Assembly (NCBI RefSeq): GCF_026626665.1
Contig: NZ_JAPNKE010000002.1
Span: 3,693,168-3,757,167 of the forward strand
Length of the DNA stretch: 64,000 nt
Reading direction: 5' to 3'
Source: Nannocystis pusilla
GTDB lineage: Bacteria; Myxococcota_A; Polyangia; Nannocystales; Nannocystaceae
The notes under the pieces were generated by a model that saw only the letters and a program-made list of their open reading frames with translations, was not told the origin of the DNA and ran no database searches. The translations under genes and the position numbers were made by a program. Below, piece by piece: positions 9,596-56,712 of this stretch; position 1 is the stretch's first letter, and each line of letters begins with the position of its first letter.

Positions 9596-11380
9596 TCACT
9601 CGGGGCGCGGTGCGAGCTCGGGGTCGATCAGCGCGCGCACGTAGGCGTGGTAGTGCGTGGCGATCGCCGCCTCGAACCTGGCCTGAAGTTCAGGCGACAT
9701 CCCGAACGGTCCGTCGGCCCAGAAGCTGAAGTCGGCGATGAAGTCGTCCTCGGAGCGGTCGTAGACGCGCCAGTCGATCGCGGGGAACGGCGGGAGATAG
9801 TCGGACGGCGGGAACTCGAGCCACGCGCGCAGGCTGGTGCTCCCGGCGCTCGCCTCCTCGTCGTCGTCCTCGTCGTCCTCGTCGTCCTCGTCGTCCGCGG
9901 CGCGCGGGTCGGTGAACACGACGCCGAGGCCGTTGCGGTCCAGCAGCTCGCGCCAGAACCGGGCGACGATCCGGAACAGCGCCGCGTCGCCGTCGATCGG
10001 CATCACGTGGCCGTTCCACGGGTCGCTCATCAGGATCGTCTCGAACTCGCCGCCGGGCGGGCACAGCGCGATCCGGTCCTCCTGGAACGTCCCGGGCGCA
10101 GGGCGGTGGCACGGGCAGAACAGCACGGTCCAGCCGTCGAGCTCGAGCGCCGCCAGCAGTTGGTCGTCGACGCTCTCGCGCAGCGCGTCGGTCTCGGCCT
10201 CGTCGAGCAGGCGGACGCGCCGCGCGGCCGCGGCCAGGCGCTCCTCGCTCAGCCTCGCCCGCGGCGACGGAGCCGGCGCCGCGCCGGGCGGGCCCTCGGC
10301 GACCCACGTCGCCAGCAGGGCCAGCGGTTGCGACGCCCTCAGGAACCCGTGGCACAGGAACTCGACGTCGGCCGCCACGTCCCCGCGGGCGAGGTACTCC
10401 TGGGCCGCCGCCCGCCACGCCTCGACGGCCGCGCGCGCGACCGATTCGTCGGTCGGCGCGGGGTCCAGGTAGTCCTCCACCGCCAGCGAGCGGACGAACA
10501 CCTCGCGCTCGTGGATGTCGACCAACTCGTCGCCCTCGTGCGTGACGACGCGTACCAGCCAGCGCAAGAGGCCGTACTGGGGCGCCTCGTCCTCGTGCCG
10601 GACCGACATCACGTGCAGCGCGTGGCGCCTCTCGCCGGCGACCGCCTCGACGAGCGGACGATCGCCGCCGGCGCCGAGCAGCTTGATCCCGCGGGAGAGC
10701 AGCCACCCGGCTCGCCCGCCGACGGCCTCGGGGATCAGCGCCTGCAGCAGCGCGCCCGCGATCGACTCCGGATAGCCCGGGCGCGGAGCGGCGAGCGCCG
10801 AGCGCAGCGTCGCCTCGGCCCGCGCGCGCCAGTTCGGCGCGAGCGGGAGGTCGTCGGCGATGTACGACGGCATGCGGACCCAGCCGCGCGCCCGCTGCTG
10901 GACGTCGCCGTCGCTCCAGCGCACCGCGATGTGCACCGCGCCCTCGCTGCCGCGCAGGTGCGGCCGCAGCCAGTCGACCTGCAGCGCCCGCGCCCCGTCG
11001 ACGACGCGCAGCCCGTCGAACACGTGGGTCTTCAGGGCCGCGGCGACGCTACCTGGCCGTTCGGACAGCTCGACGAACTCGTCGCCGACGAGCGCCGCGA
11101 GCTCGGCCCGCAGCGCCGGGTCGGCCGCGTCGCCCGCCTCGGCGAGCGCGACGATCGCCAGCTCGGGGCCGCGACCGAGGCACTGCGTGCGTCGAAGCTC
11201 CTCGGCGAGCGCGTCGCGGTCGAGCGTCGGCACGTTCGCCGGCGGCCAGGCGACGGGCAGGTCTCGCGGCAGCGCGGCCGCCCGCGTCAGCGCCTCGATC
11301 AGGGCCTCGGACAACTCGACGGAGCTCACCGCGCCGACCCTAGCGAATCGGGGCGCCGATCGCCACGGAGACCCGCGCAT
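9596..11380 (-). CDS. hypothetical protein (~595 aa) with a poly-acidic DDEDDEDDEDDDEE stretch
   Basis: Long minus-strand ORF with coding-like GC3 bias. ATG at 11380 is divergent from the lipoprotein gene. No recognisable domain. Confidence 0.45.
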   Translation of the reverse strand: MRGSPWRSAPRFARVGAVSSVELSEALIEALTRAAALPRDLPVAWPPANVPTLDRDALAEELRRTQCLGRGPELAIVALAEAGDAADPALRAELAALVGDEFVELSERPGSVAAALKTHVFDGLRVVDGARALQVDWLRPHLRGSEGAVHIAVRWSDGDVQQRARGWVRMPSYIADDLPLAPNWRARAEATLRSALAAPRPGYPESIAGALLQALIPEAVGGRAGWLLSRGIKLLGAGGDRPLVEAVAGERRHALHVMSVRHEDEAPQYGLLRWLVRVVTHEGDELVDIHEREVFVRSLAVEDYLDPAPTDESVARAAVEAWRAAAQEYLARGDVAADVEFLCHGFLRASQPLALLATWVAEGPPGAAPAPSPRARLSEERLAAAARRVRLLDEAETDALRESVDDQLLAALELDGWTVLFCPCHRPAPGTFQEDRIALCPPGGEFETILMSDPWNGHVMPIDGDAALFRIVARFWRELLDRNGLGVVFTDPRAADDEDDEDDEDDDEEASAGSTSLRAWLEFPPSDYLPPFPAIDWRVYDRSEDDFIADFSFWADGPFGMSPELQARFEAAIATHYHAYVRALIDPELAPRPE

Positions 11381-13041: not shown

Positions 13042-13518
13042 CTAGGCGGCCGGCAGCGCGTCGTCGTCGCCGGCCTTCGCGCCTCTCCGCCGGGGGCGTG
13101 GCGTGCCGCGCTCGACGGATTCGCCGCGGAGGCTGCGGCCGCGTTGAAACACGAACACCCGGCCGAAGACGCCGACGGCGACGGTCGTGTCGCCGGTGGT
13201 GGCCGAAACGAGGAGGTAATCCCCGTGGATGAGCACCGGATCGCTCAATGAGGTGGTCGCGCGGAGCGCGGTCAAATGCTGCGACCGGTCCGGCTTCGTG
13301 AGCAGGGCCAACATGAGCAGCGTCGCCACCGCCAACTGGTCGAGCCAGCGCGGGCGGACCCGGTGCCGCGCTCGCAACGCGAACCAGAGCAGCGCCAGGA
13401 AGGCGACGAAGACCGGGATCACGACTGCCTGCTTCATGAAGGGGCCGATCGCACCTCCCGCCAGCGCAGTGTGCATGAGGGTCGTGGCGGACTGGGAATC
13501 CAGCAGGTCAAGTTGCAT
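13042..13518 (-). CDS. hypothetical small membrane protein
   Basis: Hydrophobic segment AVVIPVFVAFLALLWFAL. Weak call. Confidence 0.25.
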   Translation of the reverse strand: MQLDLLDSQSATTLMHTALAGGAIGPFMKQAVVIPVFVAFLALLWFALRARHRVRPRWLDQLAVATLLMLALLTKPDRSQHLTALRATTSLSDPVLIHGDYLLVSATTGDTTVAVGVFGRVFVFQRGRSLRGESVERGTPRPRRRGAKAGDDDALPAA

Positions 13519-14160
13519 CGGGATCGTCTTCCGCGATCGCGCCTGCGATCTGCGGAATGGCGGCCCGACCACTCCAGAACCTGTGACGGACCTCCCGCCA
13601 CACCCTACGCGGATACGCACCCGCGTACTACGCAGATACCGCACCACGGCTCAGCATGCAAGCGACTTGCGACTCCCATGAACGGAGCGCCCCTCGCGCC
13701 CCGTCCCGACACACTCGCTGGATTGGATTACCCGACTGTCATCTTCGGCCCGCGCTGCCACGGGCAGCACAGGCACCTCTACGCGCCGAGGTCGTCGCTC
13801 GCCGCGCCGCACCGCGCCCCCTGGCGCTCGCAGCGGCCGCGAGGCATCGCCCGCCACCTCCCGGCAGGTAGCGCCGCGCCCGCGGCGACCGCGATGGCCT
13901 TGCGGACCGAAGGACGGCCCGAGGCTCATTGGGGACCTCGGCACGCCGACCCCGCAACATCGATTCACGGCGCGGCTGGACGAGCGCTCGACATGGCAGC
14001 AGACCCTCCGCCGCTCGCCGGGCCGGAGCGACGCCGCGAGCTTTCGGCGCAGTACGACCCCGCAATCACCGAGCCCGGGCGAATCATGTGTGCGCCTCCG
14101 ATCGCTATGAAAATCATCACCGCTCGCCGCGGGGTCCCTACAATCCCCGCAGTCGCGCGG

Positions 14161-44247: not shown

Positions 44248-45603
44248 ATGAGTCCCATGTCTCCACGCAACGACCTGCTCCCCGACGTCGCCCCGCTCGC
44301 CCTCGATCCCCGGCCGCGGCTCGGCCGCGACTACTCGCGGCTGACCGGCCCGGGCCCGGCCGCGCTGCTCGAGCGGGCGCGCCTCCTCGACGGGTCGCGC
44401 GTGCGGCGGATCCTCGTCGTCCGGCTCGACAACCTCGGCGACATCATCCTCACCGGCCCGGCCCTGCGCGCGCTCAAGGCCCATCTCCCGCACGTCCACC
44501 TCACCCTGCTCGCCAGCCCCGGCGGCGCCGCCGCGGCCGCCCTGCTGCCGTGGGTCGACGCCGTCGAGCCCTGCCGCGCCCTGTGGCAGGACCTGGGCCG
44601 CCTCGCCTTCGATCCCGCGCGCGAGCGCGAGCTCATCGCCACCCTGCGGCGCGGCGAGTACGACCTCGCCTTCATCCTCACCAGCTTCCGCCAGAGCCCG
44701 CACCCGGCCGCCGTCGTCTGCGCCATGGCCGGCATCCCTGTGCGGATCGGCGAGTCGCGCGAGCGCGGGCGGGCCCTCACCGTCGCCCTCCCGCACGCCG
44801 ACGACGGCCTCCATCAGAGCGAGCGCAACCTTCAACTCGTCGAGCGCCTCGGCGTGCCGGTCGTCGATCGCCGGCTCGAAATCCGCCTCCCGCGGCCCGC
44901 CTGGACCGCCGCCCAGGCCCGCCTGGCCGCCCACGGCGTCGCCGGCGACTACCTCGTGTGGAACCCCTTCGCCAGCTGCGCCGCGCGCACCTACGACCCC
45001 TTGCGCCACGCCCTCGCCGCCCGCGCTCTGGCCGAGTACGCCGACCTGCGCCTGCTCGTCTGCGGCGCCGCCCGCGACCGCGAGCGCGCCCGCGAGCTCC
45101 TGCCGCTGCTCGGCCCGCGCGGCCTCGACCTGGTCGGAGAGACAGATCTGCCCGAGTTCGCCGCCCTCCTCGCCGGCGCCCGCCTCGTCCTCACCAACAA
45201 CACCGCCGCCCTCCACCTCGCCGACGCCCTCGCGGTGCCCCAGCTCGTCACCTACGCCGGTACCGACCGCGACAGCCAGTGGATGCCCCGCACCTCGCCC
45301 CACCGCCTCCTGCGCCGCCCCACCGCCTGCACCCCCTGCTATCGCTTCGCCTGCCCGACCGGCCACGAGTGCCTCGCCCTGGCCCCCGCCGAGGTCCTCG
45401 CCGCCGGCCTCTCGCTGCTCGCCGAGACCGCCGTGCGCGTGAAGCCCGGAGCGGCGAGCGCTCGTGCGCGTGACGTGAGAGCGCAGCAGCGCCGCCGCGG
45501 CGGCAGGCTGCTGACCGACCTGCCGCGCGTCCGACCGAGCTCGCAACGAGCGCGGCGCCGCTACGGCGCGGGGCACACGCCCTTGTCGTTGTACCCGTCG
45601 TAG
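44248..45603 (+). CDS. GT9 heptosyltransferase (second copy); C-terminal ~50 aa look non-native and overlap the convergent gene
   Basis: RILVVRLDNLGDIILTGPALRAL..., C-domain ...NNTAALHLADALAVPQLV. Confidence 0.7.
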   Translation: MSPMSPRNDLLPDVAPLALDPRPRLGRDYSRLTGPGPAALLERARLLDGSRVRRILVVRLDNLGDIILTGPALRALKAHLPHVHLTLLASPGGAAAAALLPWVDAVEPCRALWQDLGRLAFDPARERELIATLRRGEYDLAFILTSFRQSPHPAAVVCAMAGIPVRIGESRERGRALTVALPHADDGLHQSERNLQLVERLGVPVVDRRLEIRLPRPAWTAAQARLAAHGVAGDYLVWNPFASCAARTYDPLRHALAARALAEYADLRLLVCGAARDRERARELLPLLGPRGLDLVGETDLPEFAALLAGARLVLTNNTAALHLADALAVPQLVTYAGTDRDSQWMPRTSPHRLLRRPTACTPCYRFACPTGHECLALAPAEVLAAGLSLLAETAVRVKPGAASARARDVRAQQRRRGGRLLTDLPRVRPSSQRARRRYGAGHTPLSLYPS

Positions 45604-46102
45604 AACAGCCCGCGGCAACGGCCACAGTAGCGCCATTGCCCCTGGCCGATCGAGCTGTTGCCGCCTTGATGGTCATTCGGCAGGTAGAACACCCAACCGA
45701 CGGGGAGTGCTCCCCGCCCGCAGGACATACCGATCCGAGGCTCTGATTGCCTGGTGCCCAGAATAGGCCGTGGCATTTGCCGCAGAACCGCCAGTCTCGT
45801 TGGCCCGTGCTGTCGGTCGCGCCCATCTGATCGTTCGGGAGATAGAAGTTCAGCCCCTGGAGAGCGTGTTCCCCCCCGGTCGGGCACACAGCGCCCACGG
45901 TCTCCCCATTTTGCGCATAAAACATCCCGAAGCACTTGCGGCAGAACCGCCAGTCCTTCTGGCCGGGGAGCGCGGGGGCCCCCGCGGAGTCATTGGGGAT
46001 GAAGAACTCCCAGCCCGCGGCGACGTGCCCGCCGACTCTGGAATGTTGGCACCCGCCGCGCCGATCGGCGTGAGGCGCGCCATTCGAGGCGTCTTTCGTC
46101 AT
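45561..46102 (-). CDS. small Cys-rich protein with three ~45-aa repeats (W[RE]FCxKCxG[ML]F...G.VCPxGGEH...Y.PND); one frameshift
   Basis: Strong RBS GGAGGAGACC then ATG at 46102 (MTKDASNGAP). The repeat motif recurs three times in two frames. Confidence 0.5.
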
Positions 46103-46706
46103 GGTCTCCTCCGATTCCAGGAAACGATGCCTCGAGACGGACCCCCGGTCGGCCGAATCGTGGTGCCGACCACAGAAGCGCCACGAAATCGCTCGCCCCG
46201 CGGAAGACATCGCGCTTCACCGCCACGACACGGCGGAGCTTTCACGGTCGGAGCGCAGCAGCAAACCTCGGAGCGCGCGAGGAGCTCGCAGGCCTCGGCC
46301 CAGGCGCCGAGGACGTCGCACGAGCGCTCCACACGCCCTGGGCGCCGGTCTCTTACGGCCTCGCGCCTCCGCCCCGACCGATTTCGCGCCTTCCCTGGGC
46401 CCGGCCGCGCCACGGACCCCCGCCTGCGAGCACCCGGACACACATCATTCGCAAATCCTGAGTCTGCCGCAGCAGCCTGATGTATCGAGGCCCGAAGCTG
46501 CGGCTGAGACCGTCCCACATCCCTCGGCGCACAGATCGATCCGACCGCCGCGCACCGTGCGCGATTGCCTGAGACCCGGCATCGAGCGCAAACGGGACCC
46601 CCAGCAGAGCGGCCCGCACACCCCTCTACGCCGCGCCTCTGGCGATTAGTGCGAACCGCCTCGCAGGCAACTGCCAACAAAATCTCACCCGGGAGGAACA
46701 CTCGCC

Positions 46707-47084: not shown

Positions 47085-48011
47085 ATGCAGCTCGCCGCGG
47101 GACGCCCGGTCGAGATTCTCACTTCGACACCGCCGCGCCCGCCCGCGACAGATGCGGCTTCGCCGACCCGCCCCGTCCTGCGGCATCATGGCGTTGCCAT
47201 GCGGTTCGGTCCCGGACAATTCCTCGGCGTCTGCGAGCGGCGGCGAACCGCCCACGGCCTCGCGCTCGCCGATCTGCGGCCGACCGTGCCCGAGCACGAG
47301 GTTCACCGGCACACCCACGACGACGCCCACTTCCTGCTCTTGCTCGCCGGTCGCTATCTCAGCAGCGCGCGCGGCATGCCGGCCGTCTGCGACCACCCTG
47401 CGCTCGTCCTCAACCCGCCGGGCACCACCCACGACGATCGCTTCCGCGGCCTCGACGGCCGCTTCTTCACCCTGTCCGTCCCCACCGATAACTGGCGAGC
47501 CGTCACCACCACCTGCCCGCTCCCCGACCACCCCGTGCGGCTGGGCACGGCAGCCCTGCTCGCGGCCTATCGCCTGTGCCACGAATTGCCCCGCTGGGAC
47601 GACGCCTCCGCGCTCGTCGTCGAGTCCGAGTACCATCTGCTCCTCGCCGAGGCCGCGCTCGACGCCCGCGAGCGGCGCTCGTCCGGACCGCCCTGGCTGG
47701 CGCGCGCCCGCGATCACTTGCACGACACCTGCGCCGTCACCCCGCGCCTGTCCGAGCTCGCCGCCGCCGCCGACGTCCACCCCGTCCACTTCGCGCGCGC
47801 CTTCCGGGCCCGCTACGGCCGCTCTCCCGGCGAGTACCTGCGTCACTGTCGCCTCGAGCGCGCCAGCGCCTTGCTGCGGGACCTCCGCACGCCCCTCGCC
47901 GACATCGCCGACCAGTGCGGCTACGTCGACCAGAGCCACTTCAGCCGCGCCTTCCGCCGCGCCTACCGACTCACGCCCGCCGCCTTCCGCCGGCTCGTGC
48001 GGCCCGCCTGA
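47085..48011 (+). CDS. AraC-family transcriptional regulator
   Basis: C-terminal HTH pair ...[28 protein letters not shown]...[33 protein letters not shown]. Confidence 0.8.
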
Positions 48012-48078
48012 CACGTTCACCGCGTACAAGACCGGGCCCCGCCGCGCGGCTAGCCTCGCGCTCTCCCGACCTGGCCCG

Positions 48079-49170
48079 ATGCCCGCCTTCAAGCTGTTCG
48101 CCGCCTGCCCCCTCGCCCTCCTGCTGCTCCTCGACGCCACCGCGCCGTCCTGTCCCGCCGACGCTCCGGCCCCGCTCGCCCCGCCCGCGCCGCCCCGCCT
48201 CGAGGACCTCACGAGCGCCGTCGAGGCCGGCGAGTTCGGCCGGATCACCAGCATCCTCGTCGCCCGCGACGGCCAGCGGCTCTACGAACATTACTTCGAC
48301 GACGGCGGACCCGAGGCCGCGCGCAACACCCGGTCCGCCACCAAGACCCTCGCCGGCATCCTCGTCGGCCAGGCCATCGCCGACGGCAAGCTGCCCGGCG
48401 TGCAGGCCCCGATCCTCGACTACCTCGCCGCCTACGGCCCGCCCGAGCACCCCGATCCGCGCAAGGCCGCGATCACCGTCGAGGACCTGCTGACCATGTC
48501 GTCGCTGCTCGAATGCCACGACGAGAACCAGTTCTCGCGCGGCCACGAGGAGCGCATGTACCTCGTCGAGGATTGGGTCAAGTTCTACCTCGACCTGCCG
48601 ATCCAGGGCTTCCCGGCCTGGATGCCGAAGCCGGCCGATTCGCCGCACGGCCGCAGCTTCCGCTACTGCACCGCCGGCGTGACCGCGCTCGGCGCCGTGC
48701 TGCAGGCCGCGGTCGGCGAGCGCCTCGACCTCTACGCCCAGCGCAAGTTGCTCACGCCGCTCGGCATCGCCGACCCCCAATGGCAATACTCGCCGCTGGG
48801 TCTGCCGCAGGCCGGCGGCGGCCTCGGCCTGCGCAGCCGCGACCTCCTGGCGCTCGGCCAGCTCTACCTCGACGGCGGCCGCCACGCCGGCCGGCAGCTC
48901 GTGCCCGCCGAGTGGGTCGCGCGCTCCGTCCAGCCGCACGCCCGCGTCGACGAGGGCGTCGAGTACGGCTATTTGTGGTGGTTGATGCAGTTCCCCGTCG
49001 GCGACCGGATCTGGCAGTCGTGGGCGATGAACGGCAGCGGCGGCAATACCGTGCAGGTGTTCCCGACCGAGAGAGTCGTCGTCGTCATCACCACCACCAA
49101 CTTCGATCGCCCGCAGCCGCATCGCCTCACCGCCAAGCTGCTGACCGACAAGCTCCTCCCGGCCCTGTGA
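48079..49170 (+). CDS. serine hydrolase of the beta-lactamase/transpeptidase family, secreted
   Basis: Signal peptide [24 protein letters not shown] (SxxK) motif. ...YCTAG...GSGGN. Confidence 0.8.
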
Positions 49171-49238: not shown

Positions 49239-51074
49239 TCAGGCCAGCTCGCAGGCCATGTGCGGGCGCTCGTCGGGCATGGCGAACAGCGGCCGCTCGC
49301 GCGGCAGCTGCGACGGCGACAGCTCGTGCACGGCGCCGTCCTCCACGAACAGCACCCGGTCGAACAGCGACAGCAAGCTCCAGCGGTGGCACGCCGCCAG
49401 CACCGTCGCCTCGGGCGACGACTGGAAGATGGCAGCCAGCACCTCGCGCTCGGTCGGCGGGTCCAGGGCCGCCGTCGGCTCGTCGAGCAGCAGCAGGTCC
49501 CGCGAGTGCGCCCGCAGCAGCCCGCGGGCCAGCGCGATCCGCTGGCGCTCGCCGCCGGACAGGTTGAGGCCGCTCTGGGCCAGGTGCGTGTCCCAGCCCG
49601 CGGGCAGCTTGGCGATCACCGGTCCCAGGCGCGCCAGGCGGATCACCTGCGCCAGCAGCTCCTCCGGCACGGCCTCGCCGAGCGTCACGTTGTAGCGCAG
49701 CGTCTCCGAGAAGATCTGCGGCTCCTGCGGGATCAGCAGCGTGCGCTGGGCCAGCGCCTCGAACGAGCTGCGGCGGCCGTCGAGCGCCACCTCGCCCGCC
49801 TCCGGGCGCAGCATCCCGGCCAGCAGCTTGAGCAGCGTCGACTTGCCGCCGCCGCTCGTGCCGACCACCGCGATCTTCTCGCCGCGGCGGATCGTCAGCG
49901 ACCCGCAGCGGAGCGCCCGCGCATCGTCTGCGTAGCTGAACCCCAGCGCGTCGAGCCGCAGCTCGCGCCAGCGCGGCCCGGCCACCGACGCCGGCATGGC
50001 CGCCGGCGACCCGCGCAGCAGCTCGCTGGCGTCTTCGTAGGCGGTGCAGGCCTCGACGATGTTGCCGTAGTAGGCCGAGAAGGAGCTGATCGCCCCGAAG
50101 ATCTTGTCGAGGTAGGCGATGAGCACGTAGACCTGCGCCACGTCGAGCGCGGTGCCCTGCAGGCCGGCGCCGTGGAAGTACCACAGCAGCGACGTCGCCA
50201 TCACCAGCGCGTAGCCGCAGCTCACCGCCCCCCACTTGAGCTCGCTGAAGCGCGACACCCGGCGGACCAGCTCGCCGCCCTGGGCTCGCTGGCGCCCGAG
50301 GTCGGCGCAGGCCAGCGCCTCGAGGTTCAGCGTCTTCACCGTGACCACGTTCGTCAGGTAATCGACGCACACCCGGCCGACCGTGTTGTCGAATTGATTG
50401 ACCAGGCGGATGTTGTCGACCATGCGGCGGTTGAAGTACAGCATCGCCGCGATGGTGACCCCGCCCATGACCACCACGTTGGCGGCCACGCGCACGTCGA
50501 GGGCCCACAGCGCCGCGCTGGCGAGCACCACCTTGACGCTGCCCTCGAGCACCTGCCACGAATACTGGCCGACCACGTTGCCGACCGCGAGCGCCGAGCG
50601 GTTGAGCTTGGCCAGGTTCTCGCCCGTGTGGCGCTCCACGTGCCAGTGCAGCCCGTAGCCGAGCAGCGCCTGGAACACCCCCGTCATCGTCGTCATGCGC
50701 GCCTGATAGGCCACCCCGCTCTGCAGGTAGCGCCCCAGGTGGTGCAGCAGGATGTTGGCGAAGCGCAGCCCGAGGTACGCGCCGATCCCGAGCAGCGCGC
50801 CCTCGTAGGCGACCTGCGAGAAGCCGTGCTCGACGAACACGCCGACCGTGTAGCCGATGGCCCACGGGACCAGCAGCTCGGCCGTGTTGGCGGCGATGAA
50901 CAGGGCGACGAACGCCCAGAAGCGCGACCGGCTGGGGGCCACGGCCGCCCACGCGGCCCGCAGCAGCGGCGCCAGCCCGCGCGCGGGTGGCAGCGGCCGC
51001 GCCGGCCCGGCGGCTTCGCGGGCCCCGACCCCGGCCCACGACCACGGCGAGAGGAAACGAGCGAGTGCGTGCAT
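49239..51074 (-). CDS. ABC transporter, fused permease/ATP-binding exporter (MsbA-like)
   Basis: Six-TM N-terminal domain. Walker A GTSGGGKST, signature LSGGERQRIALAR, Walker B LLLLDEPT. Intact. Confidence 0.85.
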   Translation of the reverse strand: MHALARFLSPWSWAGVGAREAAGPARPLPPARGLAPLLRAAWAAVAPSRSRFWAFVALFIAANTAELLVPWAIGYTVGVFVEHGFSQVAYEGALLGIGAYLGLRFANILLHHLGRYLQSGVAYQARMTTMTGVFQALLGYGLHWHVERHTGENLAKLNRSALAVGNVVGQYSWQVLEGSVKVVLASAALWALDVRVAANVVVMGGVTIAAMLYFNRRMVDNIRLVNQFDNTVGRVCVDYLTNVVTVKTLNLEALACADLGRQRAQGGELVRRVSRFSELKWGAVSCGYALVMATSLLWYFHGAGLQGTALDVAQVYVLIAYLDKIFGAISSFSAYYGNIVEACTAYEDASELLRGSPAAMPASVAGPRWRELRLDALGFSYADDARALRCGSLTIRRGEKIAVVGTSGGGKSTLLKLLAGMLRPEAGEVALDGRRSSFEALAQRTLLIPQEPQIFSETLRYNVTLGEAVPEELLAQVIRLARLGPVIAKLPAGWDTHLAQSGLNLSGGERQRIALARGLLRAHSRDLLLLDEPTAALDPPTEREVLAAIFQSSPEATVLAACHRWSLLSLFDRVLFVEDGAVHELSPSQLPRERPLFAMPDERPHMACELA

Positions 51075-52487
51075 GATCACCAATCGGCGCCGGAGGACCG
51101 GGTCGAAGGGGCGCTCAGCCCCGCAGCTCCACGAGGTTCGCAACGAACGCTCGTGCGCGGATGGAGGAGGTTCTCGGGCAGGGACGGCGCGTCGGCGTGA
51201 TCATGAGGAATGAACGTCGGTGCGGAGGCATCAAAATGCATGGAGTCCAGGGATTGCGAGCGAGGACGTCCTCCGACGATCGCTCGCAGCAGCAGAGGCG
51301 GCTGACTATAACAGACGGCCGTCCGCCGCCGCCAGCCGTGAATCGCAGCGGCGGCCGCTCCGCCCGGCGGAGCGAGCGCCGCGCCGCAAGGCGACTATGA
51401 TCATAGCGCGCCCGCCGATCGCCCTGCGTCCGCGAATGGCCGACCCTCTCGCAAGTAGCGACGATCGGTCGCAGCCTCGACGCCCCGGCCATGCACCAGC
51501 ATCAATCTCCGCGATCTCACGCCGCGCGGGCACGGGGGCCCGTCACCGGCGTCTCTTGCCGGCATTCGCCCCCCATTCGCCGCTGCCGCCTCCCGGCACA
51601 TTCACCTCCGCAGAGCCCGCTGGTTCGCCGGTCCGCGCGCCGCCGGAGCCCCCCAATTACATCCTACCGGGTCCTGCGAGCACGACCGGAAATCCCCCAC
51701 CTGCGCGGGCATTTGCCAGGTTGACCGCTGTCCCCGGGCCAATTAGCCCAGTGTGATGTCCCCCCGCAACGAGCAAACCCGGCAGCGCTCCGGGACGAGA
51801 CTATCGTCTGCAACTTGACGTATCAAACCCGGCGCTTCCTGGTGCTCCGCGGCGACCTCGAGCTGGCCGGCATCGATCGGGCGCTGCAGCCGCGCTCGCA
51901 GATCGAGGCGAGGTTCGACTCTCTGTGGCAGACGGCGCTCGAGCCGGCGCTGCGGGCCGGTCTCGAGCTCACGTTCGCCGAGCGATGCGGCGCCTCGCCG
52001 CCGCTCGTGGCGCTACGAGAATCGCAGCCATGGCGACCGCCGATTGCCCGCCGCTCTCGCTCTTCGCGGCGACGCGCTGCGGTGATTCCACGCCACCCGG
52101 AGCGCCCCTCGCTCGGCGTCGCCGAATGCTCGCCCTCACCGAGCGTCGCGATACGTCGATTCGTAAGCGTTCGCTCTACCGCGTCGTGATGCTGGCGCAT
52201 CTTGATTTATATCTCATGTGTGAGCACCGAATCTGCCTTCACCCCGCTGGCCCCGTGCTGGCTGGGGCTCGCGTTGTGGTCACCGACCCTGCTTACGGGC
52301 CATCCGCGCGGGATCCCCGAAGAAGAAATCGAGGATATCTGCGACGGCCTGTTCGGCCGTATCCCACGCGTGTACGAAATCTCCTGGTCCCGGCCCAGAC
52401 TCCCAGTCTTCGGAGCTGACGATCCACTGGCCGCTCGCGCGGTGCAGCACGAGCGATGGTGCGTCACACACCGGCCCGTCGAGCCGC

Positions 52488-52745
52488 CTGGAGCTGCCGA
52501 TCGAGCGCGGCCTCGCCGGCCCCGGCCTCCTCGCCGACACGATCGTCCATCGCTGGCAAGACCACCTGCCCGCGAACCGCCTCGAGGCGCTCTACGCCCG
52601 CGACGGCCTCCAGCTCGCGCGCTCGACGATCTGCGGCTGGCACGAGCAGCTCGCCGACCTCGTCGAGGCGCGCTGGCGGCTGTTGGCGGCGAGCGGGGTG
52701 TCGCTGGAGCAGGCCGCGCTCGAGATCGGCGTGGCAGTGGTCGAG
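52488..52745 (+). mobile_element. degenerate internal fragment of an IS66-family transposase
   Basis: Frame-3 translation PIERGLAGPGLLADTIVHRWQDHLPANRLEALYARDGLQLARSTICGWHEQLADLVEARW matches the conserved IS66 TnpC core (P-x-ERG-x-AGPGLLA...LPLYRQ...RSTLA.W). There is no intact ORF on either side. Confidence 0.5.
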
Positions 52746-53119
52746 TTGCGCGCGTGGTCACGAAGCGCGGAGGGCGAGGCGAGGTGGAGAAGGAGCGCCG
52801 GCAATTCGAGGCGATCGTCGGGGCGCACGTGCGCGAGGGACTACCGAGTCCATGGGACTGTCTGGCGGCGACGATGGCGAGCAGCTGGGCCGCCCTCTCC
52901 CGCGGCAGGGCGATCTCGATCGAGACGGTGTACTTCATGGTGGAGCGCTCCAGGTTCTCACGCGGACCCTCTACGACTCAGGCACTTGACCCGGTGCGGG
53001 AATTACGGCATGAAACTTCTTAAGCACAAGACAAGACAAACCGGTTCACCTTCAAGTGACCCATAAACAGGGCATGCCGGTTCCGGCCCCGAAACAGACA
53101 TTGAAGAAAGCAGGATAAG

Positions 53120-53374
53120 ATGAATATTGATCAAATGATCGAGGCGGCAGTCCACGTCAATGAACTGCAAAGATTTCAAAACTATTATCTGATTAATTTT
53201 TACGGCGGTTCTATCGGATGGCCGATGAGAGTGCCGGCCGACTATAGTGATGGCTACTGCAACATACGAGCCGAACCGGGTGAATGGGCGAGAGACGATC
53301 AGCGCCTCCAATGGCGCTTCAACGATGCGCAAGGCCTGCATCGGGCCCTAATTATCCGGGGCTTAAACCTGTGA
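53120..53374 (+). CDS. hypothetical small protein A (84 aa) in a low-GC island
   Basis: RBS aagcAGGAtaag then ATG. Local GC is roughly 45-50% against ~70% in the flanks. No recognisable domain. Confidence 0.4.
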   Translation: MNIDQMIEAAVHVNELQRFQNYYLINFYGGSIGWPMRVPADYSDGYCNIRAEPGEWARDDQRLQWRFNDAQGLHRALIIRGLNL

Positions 53375-53688
53375 CAGTTGTAAGCAGGTTCAACGCTGTG
53401 TTCGCGTTCCAGGATGATACGACTACCGAGGATATCGCTTTTCCATTTTATAGAATAAAGGGGCACTCTGGCTTGAATGCCGCGTTCGAGGATCGCGCCA
53501 ACTTTGGGCTTGTGCCGGTCGAGGAAACGAAATGGTTCAATATAATCTCCTTGGCGACTTTCAACGGATCGCCAACATTTATCAGTTGTGGCCCCAAAAA
53601 TGAGCCGAGCGTCTGGGCTGAGCCGGAATCATGGGCCAAGAAAGGTGTCAGCGACCTGCGATGGATCGCCGTCCCCGCGACGGAGTAG
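53371..53688 (+). CDS. hypothetical small protein B (105 aa), GTGA-coupled to protein A; alternatively A+B are one gene with a frameshift
   Basis: GTG 53371 overlaps the TGA 53372-74 of gene A. Low-GC composition continues to 53688. W/F-rich, beta-strand-like sequence. Confidence 0.35.
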   Translation: MTVVSRFNAVFAFQDDTTTEDIAFPFYRIKGHSGLNAAFEDRANFGLVPVEETKWFNIISLATFNGSPTFISCGPKNEPSVWAEPESWAKKGVSDLRWIAVPATE

Positions 53689-54421
53689 ATATGCACAGCC
53701 AAATCCGGTCCGAGCCTAGGTGTTCGATGCCGGGGTTTGAGCGCCTGCGCGTGCTTGCGCAGCAGGTCCGCGACCCTGCGCGCCGACCACGACAGCCTCC
53801 GCACCAGCTCGGCGACCTCGGCCTCGACCTCAATTTGCTCGTCGCGCTCGACGCCCTGCTCCCGCCGCCCCGAGTTGGCCGTCGCGTCAGCACCAAAGCG
53901 ATGCGGTTGCTTTCCGGCGGCCTGGTCACTCATGGTTCACCTATTCTCCGCAGGCCCGTCGCCGCGCAACCAGCGCACAATGCGTGCAACCGGTTCACGC
54001 ATCAGATCCTCGTCGTCGTCCATCTTCGAACCTCCGAGGCGCTTGGTAGCGCCTCGAGGCCGAGCCCGTCACGACGCGGTTCGCCGCACGCTTACGTCGA
54101 TTCGACACCCAAGTCCACGCGTCGGATGCGCCTCGCTGCTATTTGCCTGCGCCACCTCGCGGCGACGAGCCCGCGCACCTGAAGATGCGGCGTTCCGCGT
54201 GCATCCACGCCGATTCGCCGCTCGTCCAGGCGACGATTGCTCGCGCCCATTGCGGCGTCTCCGCTCGCCTGCCGCCGATTCGCCGCTCCCGACGACGCCG
54301 CGATGCATCGCCTCGCGGCCGGCCGCCCGCGCGGCCGGCCCCGTGCTGCCGTGCAAGCAGGCGGCCCCGGCACCGCGCGAGGAGAAGCCGGTGCTCGCGC
54401 GATGGAGGTCCGCCGACGCAC

Positions 54422-54817
54422 TCAGCGCTGGCGATGCCCGCCGCCCTGCCCGCCGCGCTCGCGCTGTTGCGACGCTTGCGACGAGCGGCGCTCACGCTCC
54501 TCGTCCGAGCTGCGGCTCTCCTCGCCGCGGCCCTCGCCGGTGCGGCGGCCGCCGTGCGACGCGTGGCCGCCCTTGGCGCCGATCTCGGCCATGTGCTCGC
54601 GGTCCTGGCTGACCGCCTCGCCGCCCTTGCGGCCGGCCTCGCGCGCCTCCTCGGACGTGAACTCGTGCGCGGTGCCCTTCTCGTGGGCGGCGTGACCGCC
54701 CTTGCTTGCGATCTCGCGTTGTTTGTCCTCGTCCATCCCGGCGAAGCCGCGCCCACCCCCGCGCTGGCCCTTGGTCTCGCCCTTGTTCTCGTTGCGGTTG
54801 TCGTCCCTGGTAGGCAT
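54422..54817 (-). CDS. KGG-repeat stress-induced protein (YciG/Con-6-like)
   Basis: MPTRDDNRNENKGETKGQRGGGRGFAGMDEDKQREIASKGGHAAHEKG...GAKGGHASHGG with repeated KGG motifs. Length checks against the ORF track. Confidence 0.7.
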   Translation of the reverse strand: MPTRDDNRNENKGETKGQRGGGRGFAGMDEDKQREIASKGGHAAHEKGTAHEFTSEEAREAGRKGGEAVSQDREHMAEIGAKGGHASHGGRRTGEGRGEESRSSDEERERRSSQASQQRERGGQGGGHRQR

Positions 54818-55084
54818 GACGTCCTCGTATTTCCTGGCGCGGCGCGCCGGACTCGGACATCGGAGACCTGGCGCGACCGCATTGCGCGGAGTATGGCGCG
54901 CTACCGCGCCGGGACAAGCTCGACTATGACGATTTGCCGGACGCGGCGAATGACAGTACTCCCCAGTTCGCCCGATTTGCGGAGGCCGAGGGCGGTGGAC
55001 CGCAGGCGCCGGCCCCGGCGGGGGCGGATGACCGAGGGAAACTCCCAGGGTTGCCGAGCGTGCGGACCCGACCATACCTGGGAC

Positions 55085-56377: not shown

Positions 56378-56712
56378 TGCTCGCATTCCCGGGCCGCCTG
56401 CCCGCATTGCGCCAGCGCCCCTCCGCGATGCGTGGCACGCCCTCCTGCTCGCATTCCGGGCCCGCCTGCTCGAATCGCAGTCCGCCTGCCCGCATTGCCG
56501 TTCCGTCTGCTCGCATCGCAGTCCTGCCTGCCCGCATTGCAGTTCGCCTGCTCGCATCGCAGTTCCGCCTGCCCGCATCGCAGATCCGTCTGCTCGCATC
56601 GCAGTCCTGCCTGCCCGCATTGCAGTTCCGCCTGCTCGCATCGCAGTTCCGCCTGCCCGCATCGCAGTTCCGCCTGCCCGCATCGCAGTTCCGCCTGCTC
56701 GCATCGCGTTCG
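56378..56712. repeat. ~16 tandem copies of a degenerate 21-bp unit (CGCCTGCCCGCATCGCAGTTC and variants) in the intergenic region upstream of gene 56857
   Basis: Direct repeats seen in the sequence. No spacers and no intact ORF with coding-like composition. Confidence 0.7.

What the first reader, a model, noticed from the sequence alone, without database searches (positions are those of the whole stretch)
52200..54040. Mobile-element scar: degenerate IS66 transposase fragment next to a ~0.7-kb low-GC island carrying two overlapping small genes of unknown function
The translated fragment PIERGLAGPGLLA...LPANRLEALYARDGLQLARSTICGWHEQLADL is a recognisable but internally truncated IS66 TnpC core. 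Immediately downstream, GC drops sharply (53000-53690). Within this low-GC stretch an 84-aa ORF with a good RBS overlaps a 105-aa ORF by GTGA. That arrangement is typical of toxin-antitoxin or small two-gene defence cassettes. Neither product resembles anything I recognise. On the opposite strand, two tiny RBS-led ORFs (MDDDEDLMREPVARIVRWLRGDGPAENR, then MSDQAAGKQP...ELVRRLSWSARRVADLLRK, HTH-like) may be the remains of a regulator or excisionase. Together they look like horizontally acquired cargo of a decayed element.
Basis: partly seen in the sequence, partly recalled or inferred. Interest (0 to 1): 0.65.

Follow-up and report, generated by a model that had tools for sequence, protein, structure and literature searches.

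The report
Defective IS66 transposon carrying one orphan gene
The flagged stretch is the inside of a 1.9-kb transposase-less IS66-type mobile element that jumped into this Nannocystis pusilla strain, and its "two overlapping genes" are one 189-residue orphan gene split by a one-base gap at a run of C's that is probably a sequencing error, so it is an ordinary mobile-element insertion, not a toxin-antitoxin or defence cassette.

Summary
The raw observations hold. A 58-residue IS66 TnpC fragment lies at 52491-52664. The only low-GC stretch of the 64-kb window lies at 52961-53739 (52% vs 72% GC). The interpretation mostly fails.

1. The region is not a scar. It is a complete IS66-type unit (52163-54095, 1,933 bp) with 27-bp GTAAGCG inverted repeats and a perfect 8-bp target duplication. 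Another N. pusilla strain has the uninterrupted target site.
2. ORF A (84 aa) and ORF B (105 aa) are one gene. All 16 relatives are single 189-aa ORFs. An independent read assembly of the same element (99.7% identical) reads GGGCCCCC where the window reads GGGCCCT.
3. The minus-strand "regulator" ORFs are not regulator genes. One is the antisense of a LysR 5' fragment. The other is the last 21 codons of a 167-aa membrane-protein gene fused to the IS66 end.

The 189-aa protein is a Nannocystis-restricted orphan. It has no homologue among 1.84 billion representative proteins and no usable structure model. It is under purifying selection (dN/dS 0.12-0.31), is drifting towards higher GC, and sits in at least five different contexts. 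Its function remains unknown.

Verdict: a new member of a known kind, of low interest.

The parts
52155..52162 (.). Left copy of the 8-bp target-site duplication, GTCGATTC.
   Evidence: Identical to 54096-54103. The sister strain L004 has a single GGCGATTC at the uninterrupted site.
52163..52189 (+). Left terminal inverted repeat, GTAAGCGTTCGCTCTACCGCGTCGTGA (IS66-family type).
   Evidence: 2 matches in the window and 0 in 100 shuffles. The same motif flanks genuine IS66 tnpC and tnpA genes in metagenome contigs.
52491..52664 (+). Fragment of IS66 tnpC, 58 codons from the start of the DDE domain, truncated on both sides.
   Evidence: PF03050 positions 1-58 of 284, E 3.9e-11. NF033517 positions 81-138. 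81% identical to residues 185-241 of L019 TnpC.
52668..52760 (+). Weak IS66 TnpA-like HTH fragment (ARWRLLAASGVSLEQAALEIGVAVVELRAWS).
   Evidence: BLASTP against L023 TnpA gives E 2e-4 and against L017 TnpA E 0.01. There is no HMM hit, so the assignment is tentative.
52961..53739 (+). Low-GC core (52% GC) shared by all copies of the orphan gene: a 160-bp leader, the CDS and about 50 bp of 3' flank.
   Evidence: 88% identical to L001 over exactly this span. Also found in L026, L027, L029-L032 with ragged left limits at 52940-52981. GC.
53120..53688 (+). Single orphan gene that is 189 codons in relatives. Here it is read as ORF A (53120-53374) plus ORF B (53371-53688) because of a 1-nt gap at 53345-53349.
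53345..53349 (+). Frame-breaking site. The window reads GGGCCCT. The independent assembly L028 reads GGGCCCCC (a C5 run).
   Evidence: Of the 3 differences in 1,044 aligned bases, 2 are at this site.
53821..53861 (+). 5' fragment of a LysR-type regulator gene (…DLNLLVALDALL).
   Evidence: 100% identical to the start of the LysR gene in L027, 14319-14359. Longer versions in L003 and L029 hit PF00126 HTH_1.
53937..54005 (-). Last 21 codons plus stop of a 167-aa membrane-protein gene of unknown function, truncated by the IS66 end. This forms most of the 28-aa 'tiny ORF'.
   Evidence: The L029, L031 and L032 167-aa proteins end in …LMREPVARIVRWWRGDGPAENR. Window 52981-54005 is colinear with L029.
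54009..54068 (-). IS66 subterminal sequence, with a ribosome-binding site and the first 7 codons (MDDDEDL) of an IS-borne ORF.
   Evidence: 91% identical to L018 over 54009-54096. L018 reads MDDDENL at the same distance from the repeat.
54069..54095 (-). Right terminal inverted repeat, GTAAGCGTGCGGCGAACCGCGTCGTGA as read on the minus strand.
   Evidence: 22 of 27 bases identical to the left repeat.
54096..54103 (.). Right copy of the 8-bp target-site duplication, GTCGATTC.

Best explanation
Window 52163-54095 is a 1,933-bp non-autonomous IS66-family element, like a mobile insertion cassette or a pseudo-compound transposon. It has two 27-bp GTAAGCG-type terminal inverted repeats. They enclose small remnants of IS66 genes (58 codons of tnpC and a possible tnpA piece) and a captured piece of Nannocystis chromosome.

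The captured piece holds one low-GC orphan gene with its leader, a LysR 5' stub and the 3' end of a 167-aa membrane-protein gene.

The unit inserted as one piece into the spacer between an ABC-transporter gene and a small gene of unknown function, here 54425-54736 on the minus strand, and duplicated 8 bp of target (shown). It has no transposase of its own, so it must have been moved by TnpC (with TnpA and TnpB) supplied in trans by a full-length IS66 relative with the same ends (inferred).

The 'two overlapping genes' are one 189-codon gene for a soluble, acidic, Trp-rich 21-kDa protein. The split is a 1-nt gap at a C5 homopolymer. I rate it about 65% likely to be a consensus error of a nanopore-only assembly and about 35% likely to be a very recent real frameshift.

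The orphan gene is real: it is under purifying selection. It is of foreign, lower-GC origin and is still ameliorating. It is restricted to Nannocystis. It works as a stand-alone protein, not as a toxin-antitoxin pair. Its biochemical role cannot be derived from the evidence here.
For: Ends and insertion:
- The inverted-repeat pair and the 8/8 direct repeat come. The repeat motif occurs exactly twice in the window and 0 times in 100 shuffles.
- After removing 52163-54103, the flanks join into a sequence that is continuous in N. pusilla GCA_049337375.1 (…GATATGGCGATTCGACGCCC…). The surrounding 2.9 kb and 2.4 kb are colinear at 94.5% identity.
- The same repeat motif occurs in 17 metagenome contigs. 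There it lies next to 535-584-aa TnpC genes (PF03050, E 1.6e-75 to 3.3e-72) and TnpA genes (NF047593, E 2e-15 and 8e-10).
- The literature describes IS66 terminal repeats of 20-30 bp starting with GTAAGCG and 8-bp direct repeats (PMC11946415). It also describes MICs and MITEs that are moved by a cognate transposase in trans (PMC3129680).
- The window has only the one tnpC fragment and no full transposase gene.

Cargo:
- Window 52981-54005 is colinear at 90% with L029, which has no IS66 ends.

One gene, not two:
- P0002 and 15 other cluster members are all 189 aa.
- P0134 equals the frame-corrected window protein exactly. Its contig L028 matches window 52808-53850 at 99.7%, differing at the C-run and one other base.
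- dN/dS is 0.15 and is equal in both halves. It is 0.12-0.31 across 7 coding sequences.
- N. pusilla Na p29T was assembled from R9.4.1 nanopore reads polished only with Racon and Medaka (PMC10435759).

Orphan status:
- A full HMMER scan of 1.84 billion representative proteins finds only the window's own ORF A.
- There are no Pfam, NCBIfam, PADLOC, PHROG, PDB, plasmid, phage, IMG/VR or JGI hits.

Foreign origin:
- The CDS is 52% GC in every context, against flanks of 64-74%.
- Terminal-branch substitutions are 40 AT>GC against 14 GC>AT. At third codon positions they are 27 against 6.
Against: - No full-length IS66 with these ends is visible in the 64-kb window, so the trans-acting transposase is assumed, not seen.
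- The interior is scrambled. The tnpC fragment points away from the left repeat, whereas in full elements tnpC at that distance reads towards its repeat. About 300 bp (52190-52490) and about 170 bp (52766-52940) match nothing retrieved. The exact route of assembly is therefore unresolved.
- Against the sequencing-error reading: 15 genes (about 18 kb of CDS) compared with the sister strain show at most one frame break, so the assembly is not riddled with indels. I could not prove that the window comes from the nanopore assembly, or that ERR2215891 is the same strain.
- Structure prediction failed (pLDDT 35 and 31), so nothing supports any specific biochemical role.
Confidence: 0.8

Rival explanations
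1. One reading: a decayed IS66 scar next to a freshly acquired island that encodes a two-gene toxin-antitoxin or small defence cassette, plus remnants of a regulator or excisionase on the opposite strand.
For: In this assembly two ORFs overlap by GTGA, with an AGGA ribosome-binding site before the first. The GC content is low. An IS66 fragment lies nearby.
Against: - All 16 relatives encode one 189-aa protein.
- The GTG is the in-frame Val85 codon of the intact gene.
- dN/dS treats both halves as one frame.
- There are no PADLOC, Pfam, NCBIfam or PHROG hits.
- The minus-strand ORFs are accounted for as the antisense of a LysR stub and as a truncated membrane-protein gene.
Confidence: 0.03
2. 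The frameshift is real. The orphan gene became a pseudogene in this strain after, or during, its ride on the IS66 unit, and is decaying as in N. bainbridge.
For: - N. bainbridge keeps only a 140-bp remnant of the gene, fused to the LysR stub, so decay of this gene does happen.
- The window assembly shows at most one other frame break in about 18 kb of CDS.
- The difference is complex (C deleted plus C>T), not a plain homopolymer contraction.
Against: - The site is a C5 run.
- The source genome was probably assembled from R9.4.1 nanopore reads only.
- An independent assembly of the same mosaic has the intact frame.
- There is no second disabling mutation, and the downstream half shows no relaxed constraint.
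Confidence: 0.35
3. An autonomous IS66 inserted here and then decayed in place, with its interior later replaced by unrelated DNA. On this view the unit was not moved as an already defective cassette.
For: Remnants of tnpC and perhaps tnpA are inside the element. Perfect target duplications are expected for any IS66 insertion.
Against: - The interior block 52981-54005 is colinear with a chromosomal arrangement found elsewhere without IS66 ends. The right IS end cuts a gene of that arrangement. This means the IS ends were joined to that DNA at a donor site.
- Replacement in place would need several illegitimate events inside 1.9 kb while the 8-bp duplication stayed perfect.
- Non-autonomous derivatives of this IS group exist, for example the 107-bp repeat-to-repeat MITE in L009.
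Confidence: 0.15
4. The gene is split on purpose. Either a programmed -1 ribosomal frameshift or translational coupling yields functional products from the two frames.
For: The break lies in a G/C run, and frame B has a GTG overlapping the stop codon of frame A.
Against: - In frame A the codons are CGG GCC CTA, so GGGCCCT is not in the X XXY YYZ register. A -1 slip of the tRNAs would create mismatches (read directly from the sequence).
- No relative has the split.
Confidence: 0.02

Closest known systems
Mobile insertion cassettes (MICs, for example MIC231 derived from IS231 in the Bacillus cereus group) and other non-autonomous IS derivatives
   Same: The unit is bounded by IS-type inverted repeats and flanked by a target duplication. 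It has no functional transposase, carries passenger DNA unrelated to transposition, and is presumed to be mobilised in trans (concept as described in PMC3129680; features shown).
   Different: It derives from the IS66 family, not IS231/IS4. It still holds small fragments of the transposase genes, so it also resembles an internally rearranged IS or a pseudo-compound transposon. Trans-mobilisation was not demonstrated.
IS66-family insertion sequences (tnpA-tnpB-tnpC type)
   Same: It has 27-bp terminal inverted repeats starting with GTAAGCG and an 8-bp target duplication (PMC11946415). The same repeat motif flanks genuine TnpC and TnpA genes in metagenome contigs.
   Different: Only 58 of about 540 TnpC codons remain, no tnpB is present, and the tnpC fragment is misoriented relative to the nearer end. 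The element cannot move on its own.
ISCR / IS91-family gene-capturing elements
   Same: In the L001 context the same orphan-gene core lies directly 3' of a remnant of an ISCR-type transposase (NF052416 positions 442-500 of 509, E 1.1e-6). By eye, the upstream sequence in L026 looks like that of L001. No alignment score or protein-family search was run for L026. The gene therefore travels with more than one kind of mobile element.
   Different: No ISCR sequence is present in the window. Rolling-circle capture was not tested.
Lineage-restricted orphan (ORFan) genes of foreign composition
   Same: There is no homologue outside one genus. GC is far below that of the host and is ameliorating. The gene is under purifying selection and its genomic position varies.
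   Different: Nothing is unusual for this class. The function is unknown.

Membership tests
IS66-family transposable element | Terminal inverted repeats of 20-30 bp beginning GTAAGCG. | tested here: met
   The repeats are at 52163-52189 and 54095-54069, with 22 of 27 bases identical, and both start with GTAAGCG. There are 2 matches in the window against 0 in 100 shuffles. Definition from PMC11946415.
IS66-family transposable element | 8-bp target-site duplication. | tested here: met
   GTCGATTC at 52155-52162 and at 54096-54103. The sister strain has a single copy at the empty site.
IS66-family transposable element | These ends belong to elements that encode TnpC (DDE_Tnp_IS66) and TnpA. | tested here: met
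   The repeat motif is found in 17 metagenome contigs. Adjacent ORFs hit PF03050 with E 1.6e-75 to 3.3e-72, plus PF13817 and PF13007, and NF047593 TnpA.
IS66-family transposable element | It encodes its own complete transposase (autonomous element). | tested here: not met
   Only residues 185-241 of about 540 remain. The unit is therefore filed as a non-autonomous derivative, not as an IS.
Mobile insertion cassette / non-autonomous IS derivative | IS ends and a target duplication around passenger DNA, with no transposase. | tested here: met
Mobile insertion cassette / non-autonomous IS derivative | A cognate full-length IS in the same genome supplies the transposase, and there is evidence of repeated mobilisation (other copies with other target duplications). 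| not testable with these tools
   Only 64 kb of the genome is available and it holds no full IS66.
Type II toxin-antitoxin or two-gene defence cassette | Two separate, co-conserved genes. | tested here: not met
   16 of 16 relatives are single 189-aa ORFs. The split is a 1-nt indel.
Type II toxin-antitoxin or two-gene defence cassette | Similarity to known toxin, antitoxin or defence protein families. | tested here: not met
   No hit in PADLOC, Pfam, NCBIfam or PHROGs at E <= 1. No PDB hit with a single sequence or with a profile.
Type II toxin-antitoxin or two-gene defence cassette | Toxicity of one product that is relieved by the other. | not testable with these tools
   This needs an expression experiment.
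Integron gene cassette | A precise cassette boundary with an attC recombination site. | tested here: inconclusive
   The left limit of the shared core is ragged (52940, 52961, 52977 or 52981 in different contexts). The 50-bp 3' flank shows no RYYYAAC…GTTRRRY pair by eye. Rfam found nothing in 51000-55000. No dedicated attC search was run.
Regulator or excisionase on the minus strand | A conserved minus-strand ORF with an HTH domain. | tested here: not met
   There is only a sub-threshold HTH_32 hit (E 0.017, 16 bits against a cut-off of 33.7). The region is the antisense of a LysR HTH_1 5' fragment that is coding on the plus strand. The N-terminal third of the minus ORF is not conserved in L029.

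The most novel reading that the evidence does not exclude
The 189-aa protein founds a new, Nannocystis-restricted family of mobile-element-borne accessory proteins. Candidate roles are an orphan immunity, anti-defence or defence factor, possibly working with the 167-aa membrane protein that lies convergent to it in three metagenome contexts. It is foreign in composition, kept by selection, and repeatedly relocated with IS66- and ISCR-type elements. Nothing found here excludes this reading, and nothing positively supports any particular role.
Probability: 0.1. Interest if true: 0.45.

Novelty: new member of a known kind. Interest (0 to 1): 0.2.

Why it matters
Mostly this is a cautionary and housekeeping result.

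- An apparent overlapping two-gene cassette in a nanopore-only assembly dissolves into one gene once relatives are consulted.
- An 'IS scar' turns out to be a complete transposase-less IS66 unit, with an empty site in a sister strain. That gives a clean, datable example of an IS66-type element moving chromosomal cargo within Nannocystis pusilla.
- The passenger is a well-behaved orphan gene. It is under selection, is ameliorating and is restricted to one genus. It could be a small test case for how predatory myxobacteria retain foreign genes.
- Nothing here bears on an open question, and no new mechanism is implied.

Tried and rejected
**Searches that found nothing**
- Pfam, NCBIfam, PADLOC and PHROGs on ORF A, ORF B, the 134-aa frame, the intact P0002 and the minus-strand ORFs gave nothing for the orphan.
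- The full HMMER scan of 1.84 billion representatives with P0002 returned only the window's own ORF A.
- PDB by sequence and by a 15-sequence profile gave nothing.
- tblastn against plasmids and phages gave nothing.
- The search for related loci in JGI metagenomes and IMG/VR gave nothing, but only two N-terminal peptide patterns were used, so sensitivity was low.
- Rfam on 51000-55000 at E <= 1 gave no RNA.
- The sigma-70 promoter scan found none, and the terminator-like hits were at chance level.
- No IS66 inverted repeats were found in L001-L003 or L026-L030.
- Pfam on the neighbouring genes of other contexts (167-aa, 256-aa, 193-, 199- and 276-aa proteins) gave no hint.
- A literature search for ERR2215891 returned nothing.

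**Predictions that failed**
- AlphaFold2 with a single sequence and with a 2-row alignment gave pLDDT 35 and 31. The models are unusable, so no fold search was run.

**Ideas tested and dropped**
- An internal duplication between the two halves (AEPGEWA… against AEPESWA…) is not significant (BLASTP E 0.52; 18% of shuffles score as high).
- tblastx of the unexplained interior pieces (52163-52500 and 52660-52965) against the IS66 loci gave only low-complexity noise.
- The idea that the 28-aa ORF is a TnpA N-terminus was rejected: there is no alignment.
- The idea that the minus-strand start 'MKYTVSIEIALPRER' at 52938 is an SRPBCC N-terminus came from memory only. The 243-aa ORF had no NCBIfam hit and Pfam was not run on it, so I do not claim it.
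Full report
**Source and observation**

ORF A is identical to a hypothetical protein of Nannocystis pusilla (OV079_16455) on an 11.9-Mb contig. The window has 72% GC.

GC falls to 0.49-0.52 between about 52961 and 53739. This is the only place in 64 kb where a 600-bp window falls below 0.60 (z = -6.7).

The IS66 fragment is also real but very short. Residues encoded at 52491-52664 match only positions 1-58 of 284 of PF03050 (E 3.9e-11) and positions 81-138 of NF033517.

ORF A (53120-53374), the frame-B ORF (GTG at 53371, or ATG at 53284, to 53688) and the two small minus-strand ORFs are all present as described.

**The two genes are one gene**

- Searching frame B found a 189-aa protein (P0002) from two Logan contigs. 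It covers ORF A and ORF B end to end. Note that 84 + 105 = 189.
- A DNA alignment of the window with contig L001 shows 88% identity over exactly 52961-53739. It also shows a single-base gap in the window inside a run of C's.
- The protein cluster has 16 members, and all are 189 aa. Two come from other N. pusilla genomes.
- One member, P0134, is letter for letter the window protein after frame correction. Its 1,044-bp contig (L028, run ERR2215891) matches window 52808-53850 at 99.7%. This span includes window-specific DNA on both sides of the low-GC core.
- L028 and the window differ at only three bases. One is at 53064. The other two are at the break site, where L028 reads GGGCCCCC and the window reads GGGCCCT.
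- The 'GTG start' of ORF B is the Val85 codon of the intact gene, so the GTGA overlap is accidental.
- dN/dS between the window and L001 is 0.15 (34 synonymous and 22 non-synonymous changes) and is the same in both halves. Across seven coding sequences it is 0.12-0.31. This is a real protein-coding gene read in one frame.

**Artefact or real frameshift**

Evidence for an assembly error:
- The N. pusilla type strain was assembled from R9.4.1 nanopore reads. It was polished only with Racon and Medaka (PMC10435759).
- The break is at a C5 homopolymer.
- No second lesion exists in the gene.

Evidence for a real mutation:
- tblastn of 15 genes of a sister strain against the window shows at most one other frame break in about 18 kb of CDS.
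- I could not prove that the window is from that nanopore assembly, or that ERR2215891 is the same strain.

I put the odds at about 65:35 for an assembly error over a very recent real frameshift.

**A complete IS66-type unit, not a scar**

- The repeat search found a 27-28-nt inverted pair at 52163-52189 and 54069-54095. A 12-nt direct repeat overlaps its outer edges.
- Read properly, the ends are GTAAGCGTTCGCTCTACCGCGTCGTGA and GTAAGCGTGCGGCGAACCGCGTCGTGA (22 of 27 identical). They are flanked by GTCGATTC on both sides.
- IS66-family elements are described as having 20-30-bp terminal repeats starting with GTAAGCG and 8-bp direct repeats (PMC11946415).
- The motif occurs exactly twice in the window and never in 100 shuffles.
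- In JGI metagenomes the motif occurs in 17 contigs. There it lies next to 535-584-aa TnpC genes (PF03050, E 1.6e-75 to 3.3e-72) and TnpA genes (NF047593).
- One contig carries a 107-bp repeat-to-repeat MITE of the same group (L009).
- The window's tnpC piece is 81% identical to residues 185-241 of one of these TnpC proteins. It is the only IS66 coding remnant in the 64 kb. A weak TnpA-like stretch follows it (E 2e-4 in a pairwise comparison).

**Empty site in a sister strain**

The ABC-transporter gene next to the region has a 98%-identical orthologue in N. pusilla GCA_049337375.1. That strain is colinear with the window at 94.5% up to 51982 and again from 54358.

When 52163-54103 is removed from the window, the joined flanks (…GCGATACGTCGATTC|GACACCCAAG…) align across the junction with that strain's …ACGATATGGCGATTCGACGCCCGAG…. 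That is an uninterrupted target site.

The same strain carries its own intact copy of the orphan gene at an unrelated locus, after a PKS-thioesterase-P450 cluster (L027).

**What the unit carries**

- Window 52981-54005 is colinear at 90% with metagenome contig L029. L029 has no IS66 ends. Its gene order is: a 256-aa Cys-rich protein, the orphan gene, a 73-aa LysR HTH stub (PF00126), and a convergent 167-aa membrane protein.
- L031 and L032 show the same pairing of orphan gene and 167-aa gene, with different spacers and different left flanks.
- Window 53821-53861 is 100% identical to the start of an intact LysR gene that lies 3.6 kb downstream of the orphan gene in L027.
- The 28-aa ORF is two things fused: the first 7 codons of an IS-end ORF (MDDDEDL here, MDDDENL in L018, with 91% DNA identity over 54009-54096) and the last 21 codons of the 167-aa gene (…LMREPVARIVRWWRGDGPAENR).
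- The right IS end thus cuts a gene of the donor arrangement. This is why I favour capture at a donor site followed by transposition of the whole unit, rather than decay of an IS in place.
- The interior is nevertheless scrambled. The tnpC fragment faces away from the nearer end, unlike in full elements. Segments 52190-52490 and 52766-52940 match nothing I could retrieve.

**The orphan gene**

- The protein is 21.4 kDa with pI 5.7. It has no hydrophobic segment long enough for a membrane span and no significant internal repeat. It has seven invariant Trp residues and two invariant Cys residues.
- It has no detectable relative outside its own cluster in a full HMMER pass over 1.84 billion representative proteins. 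Every other library searched was also negative.
- Both AlphaFold runs failed (pLDDT 35 and 31), so no fold comparison was attempted.
- The gene occurs in at least five contexts:
  - behind an ISCR/IS91-type transposase remnant (L001: NF052416, E 1.1e-6); in L026 the gene sits at another N. pusilla locus, and the upstream sequence resembles L001's by eye only;
  - after a PKS cluster (L027);
  - in the L029/L031/L032 arrangement;
  - inside the IS66 unit of the window;
  - as a 140-bp relic in N. bainbridge, beside a response-regulator fragment, the LysR stub and a tnpC 3' remnant.
- The left limit of the shared core is ragged (52940 to 52981). This argues against a site-specific cassette.
- The CDS has 52% GC everywhere, against flanks of 64-74%.
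- Singleton substitutions on terminal branches are 40 AT>GC against 14 GC>AT, and 27 against 6 at third positions. The gene is still ameliorating from a source of lower GC.
- Its function remains unknown. The evidence shows that it is a single stand-alone protein kept by selection. It does not show what the protein does.

**Verdict**

The sequence features are real, but the proposed biology is not. This is a new example of a known kind of object: a transposase-less IS66-family unit with passenger DNA. It carries an orphan gene whose apparent split is a one-base problem at a homopolymer. Interest is low. The only open point of some curiosity is the role of the Nannocystis-restricted 189-aa protein.

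Noticed in passing
window 13555-13605 (-); also L003 9158-9387: There is an nhaA-I RNA (Rfam RF03057, 51.6 bits against a gathering score of 37, E 2.8e-7). By reading the sequence, it seems to lie upstream of a minus-strand ORF that starts near 13437. A stretch 81% identical (window 13434-13664) lies in N. bainbridge about 600 bp from that genome's relic of the orphan gene.
   Followed up: partly
L009 4680-4786: A 107-bp element consists of two facing IS66-type inverted repeats (GTAAGCGTTCGACGAACCGCGTCG…) with almost nothing between them. It is a MITE of the same IS66 subgroup in a metagenome contig.
   Followed up: no
window 56462-56711: A tandem array of twelve 21-bp units (consensus CCGCCTGCCCGCATCGCAGTT, 84% matches) lies downstream of the glycosyltransferase gene. 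It aligns in several registers with the sister strain, so its copy number probably varies.
   Followed up: no
window 47645-48486 and 48625-49087: Two further blocks (about 840 bp and 460 bp), beyond the 3' end of the ABC-transporter gene, have no counterpart in N. pusilla GCA_049337375.1. In turn, that strain's genes at L004 13350-14108 and 14582-14989 have no match in the window. The whole neighbourhood, a heptosyltransferase/HldE-type sugar cluster, varies between strains.
   Followed up: no
window about 45564-46210 (-): The orthologue of L004 gene 15032-15868 aligns to the window in two different frames, with a switch near 45704, inside a repetitive low-complexity part. This is the only other possible frame break seen in about 18 kb of compared CDS. 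It could be another indel error or a real difference.
   Followed up: no
L029 4644-5147 (-), L031 1597-2100 (-), L032 2586-3089 (-); remnant at window 53937-54005 (-): A 167-aa hydrophobic protein with no Pfam hit and 61.5% GC (below the GC of its neighbouring genes) lies convergent to the orphan gene in three metagenome contexts. It may be a functional partner or merely a neighbour.
   Followed up: partly
L003 9694-10640 (N. bainbridge): A patchwork of fragments lies within 1 kb: a response-regulator receiver domain (PF00072), 140 bp of the orphan gene, a LysR HTH stub, and the last 80 codons of an IS66 tnpC on the minus strand. No IS66 inverted repeats are present.
   Followed up: partly
L001 1080-1508 (+); L026 about 9700-9850: The C-terminal end of an ISCR/IS91-type transposase (CRRCGGRMRALAVV… motif; NF052416, E 1.1e-6) sits immediately upstream of the orphan-gene core in L001. 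The same may hold in the complete N. pusilla genome CP185339.1 (L026), but there I only saw a resemblance by eye and ran no test.
   Followed up: partly
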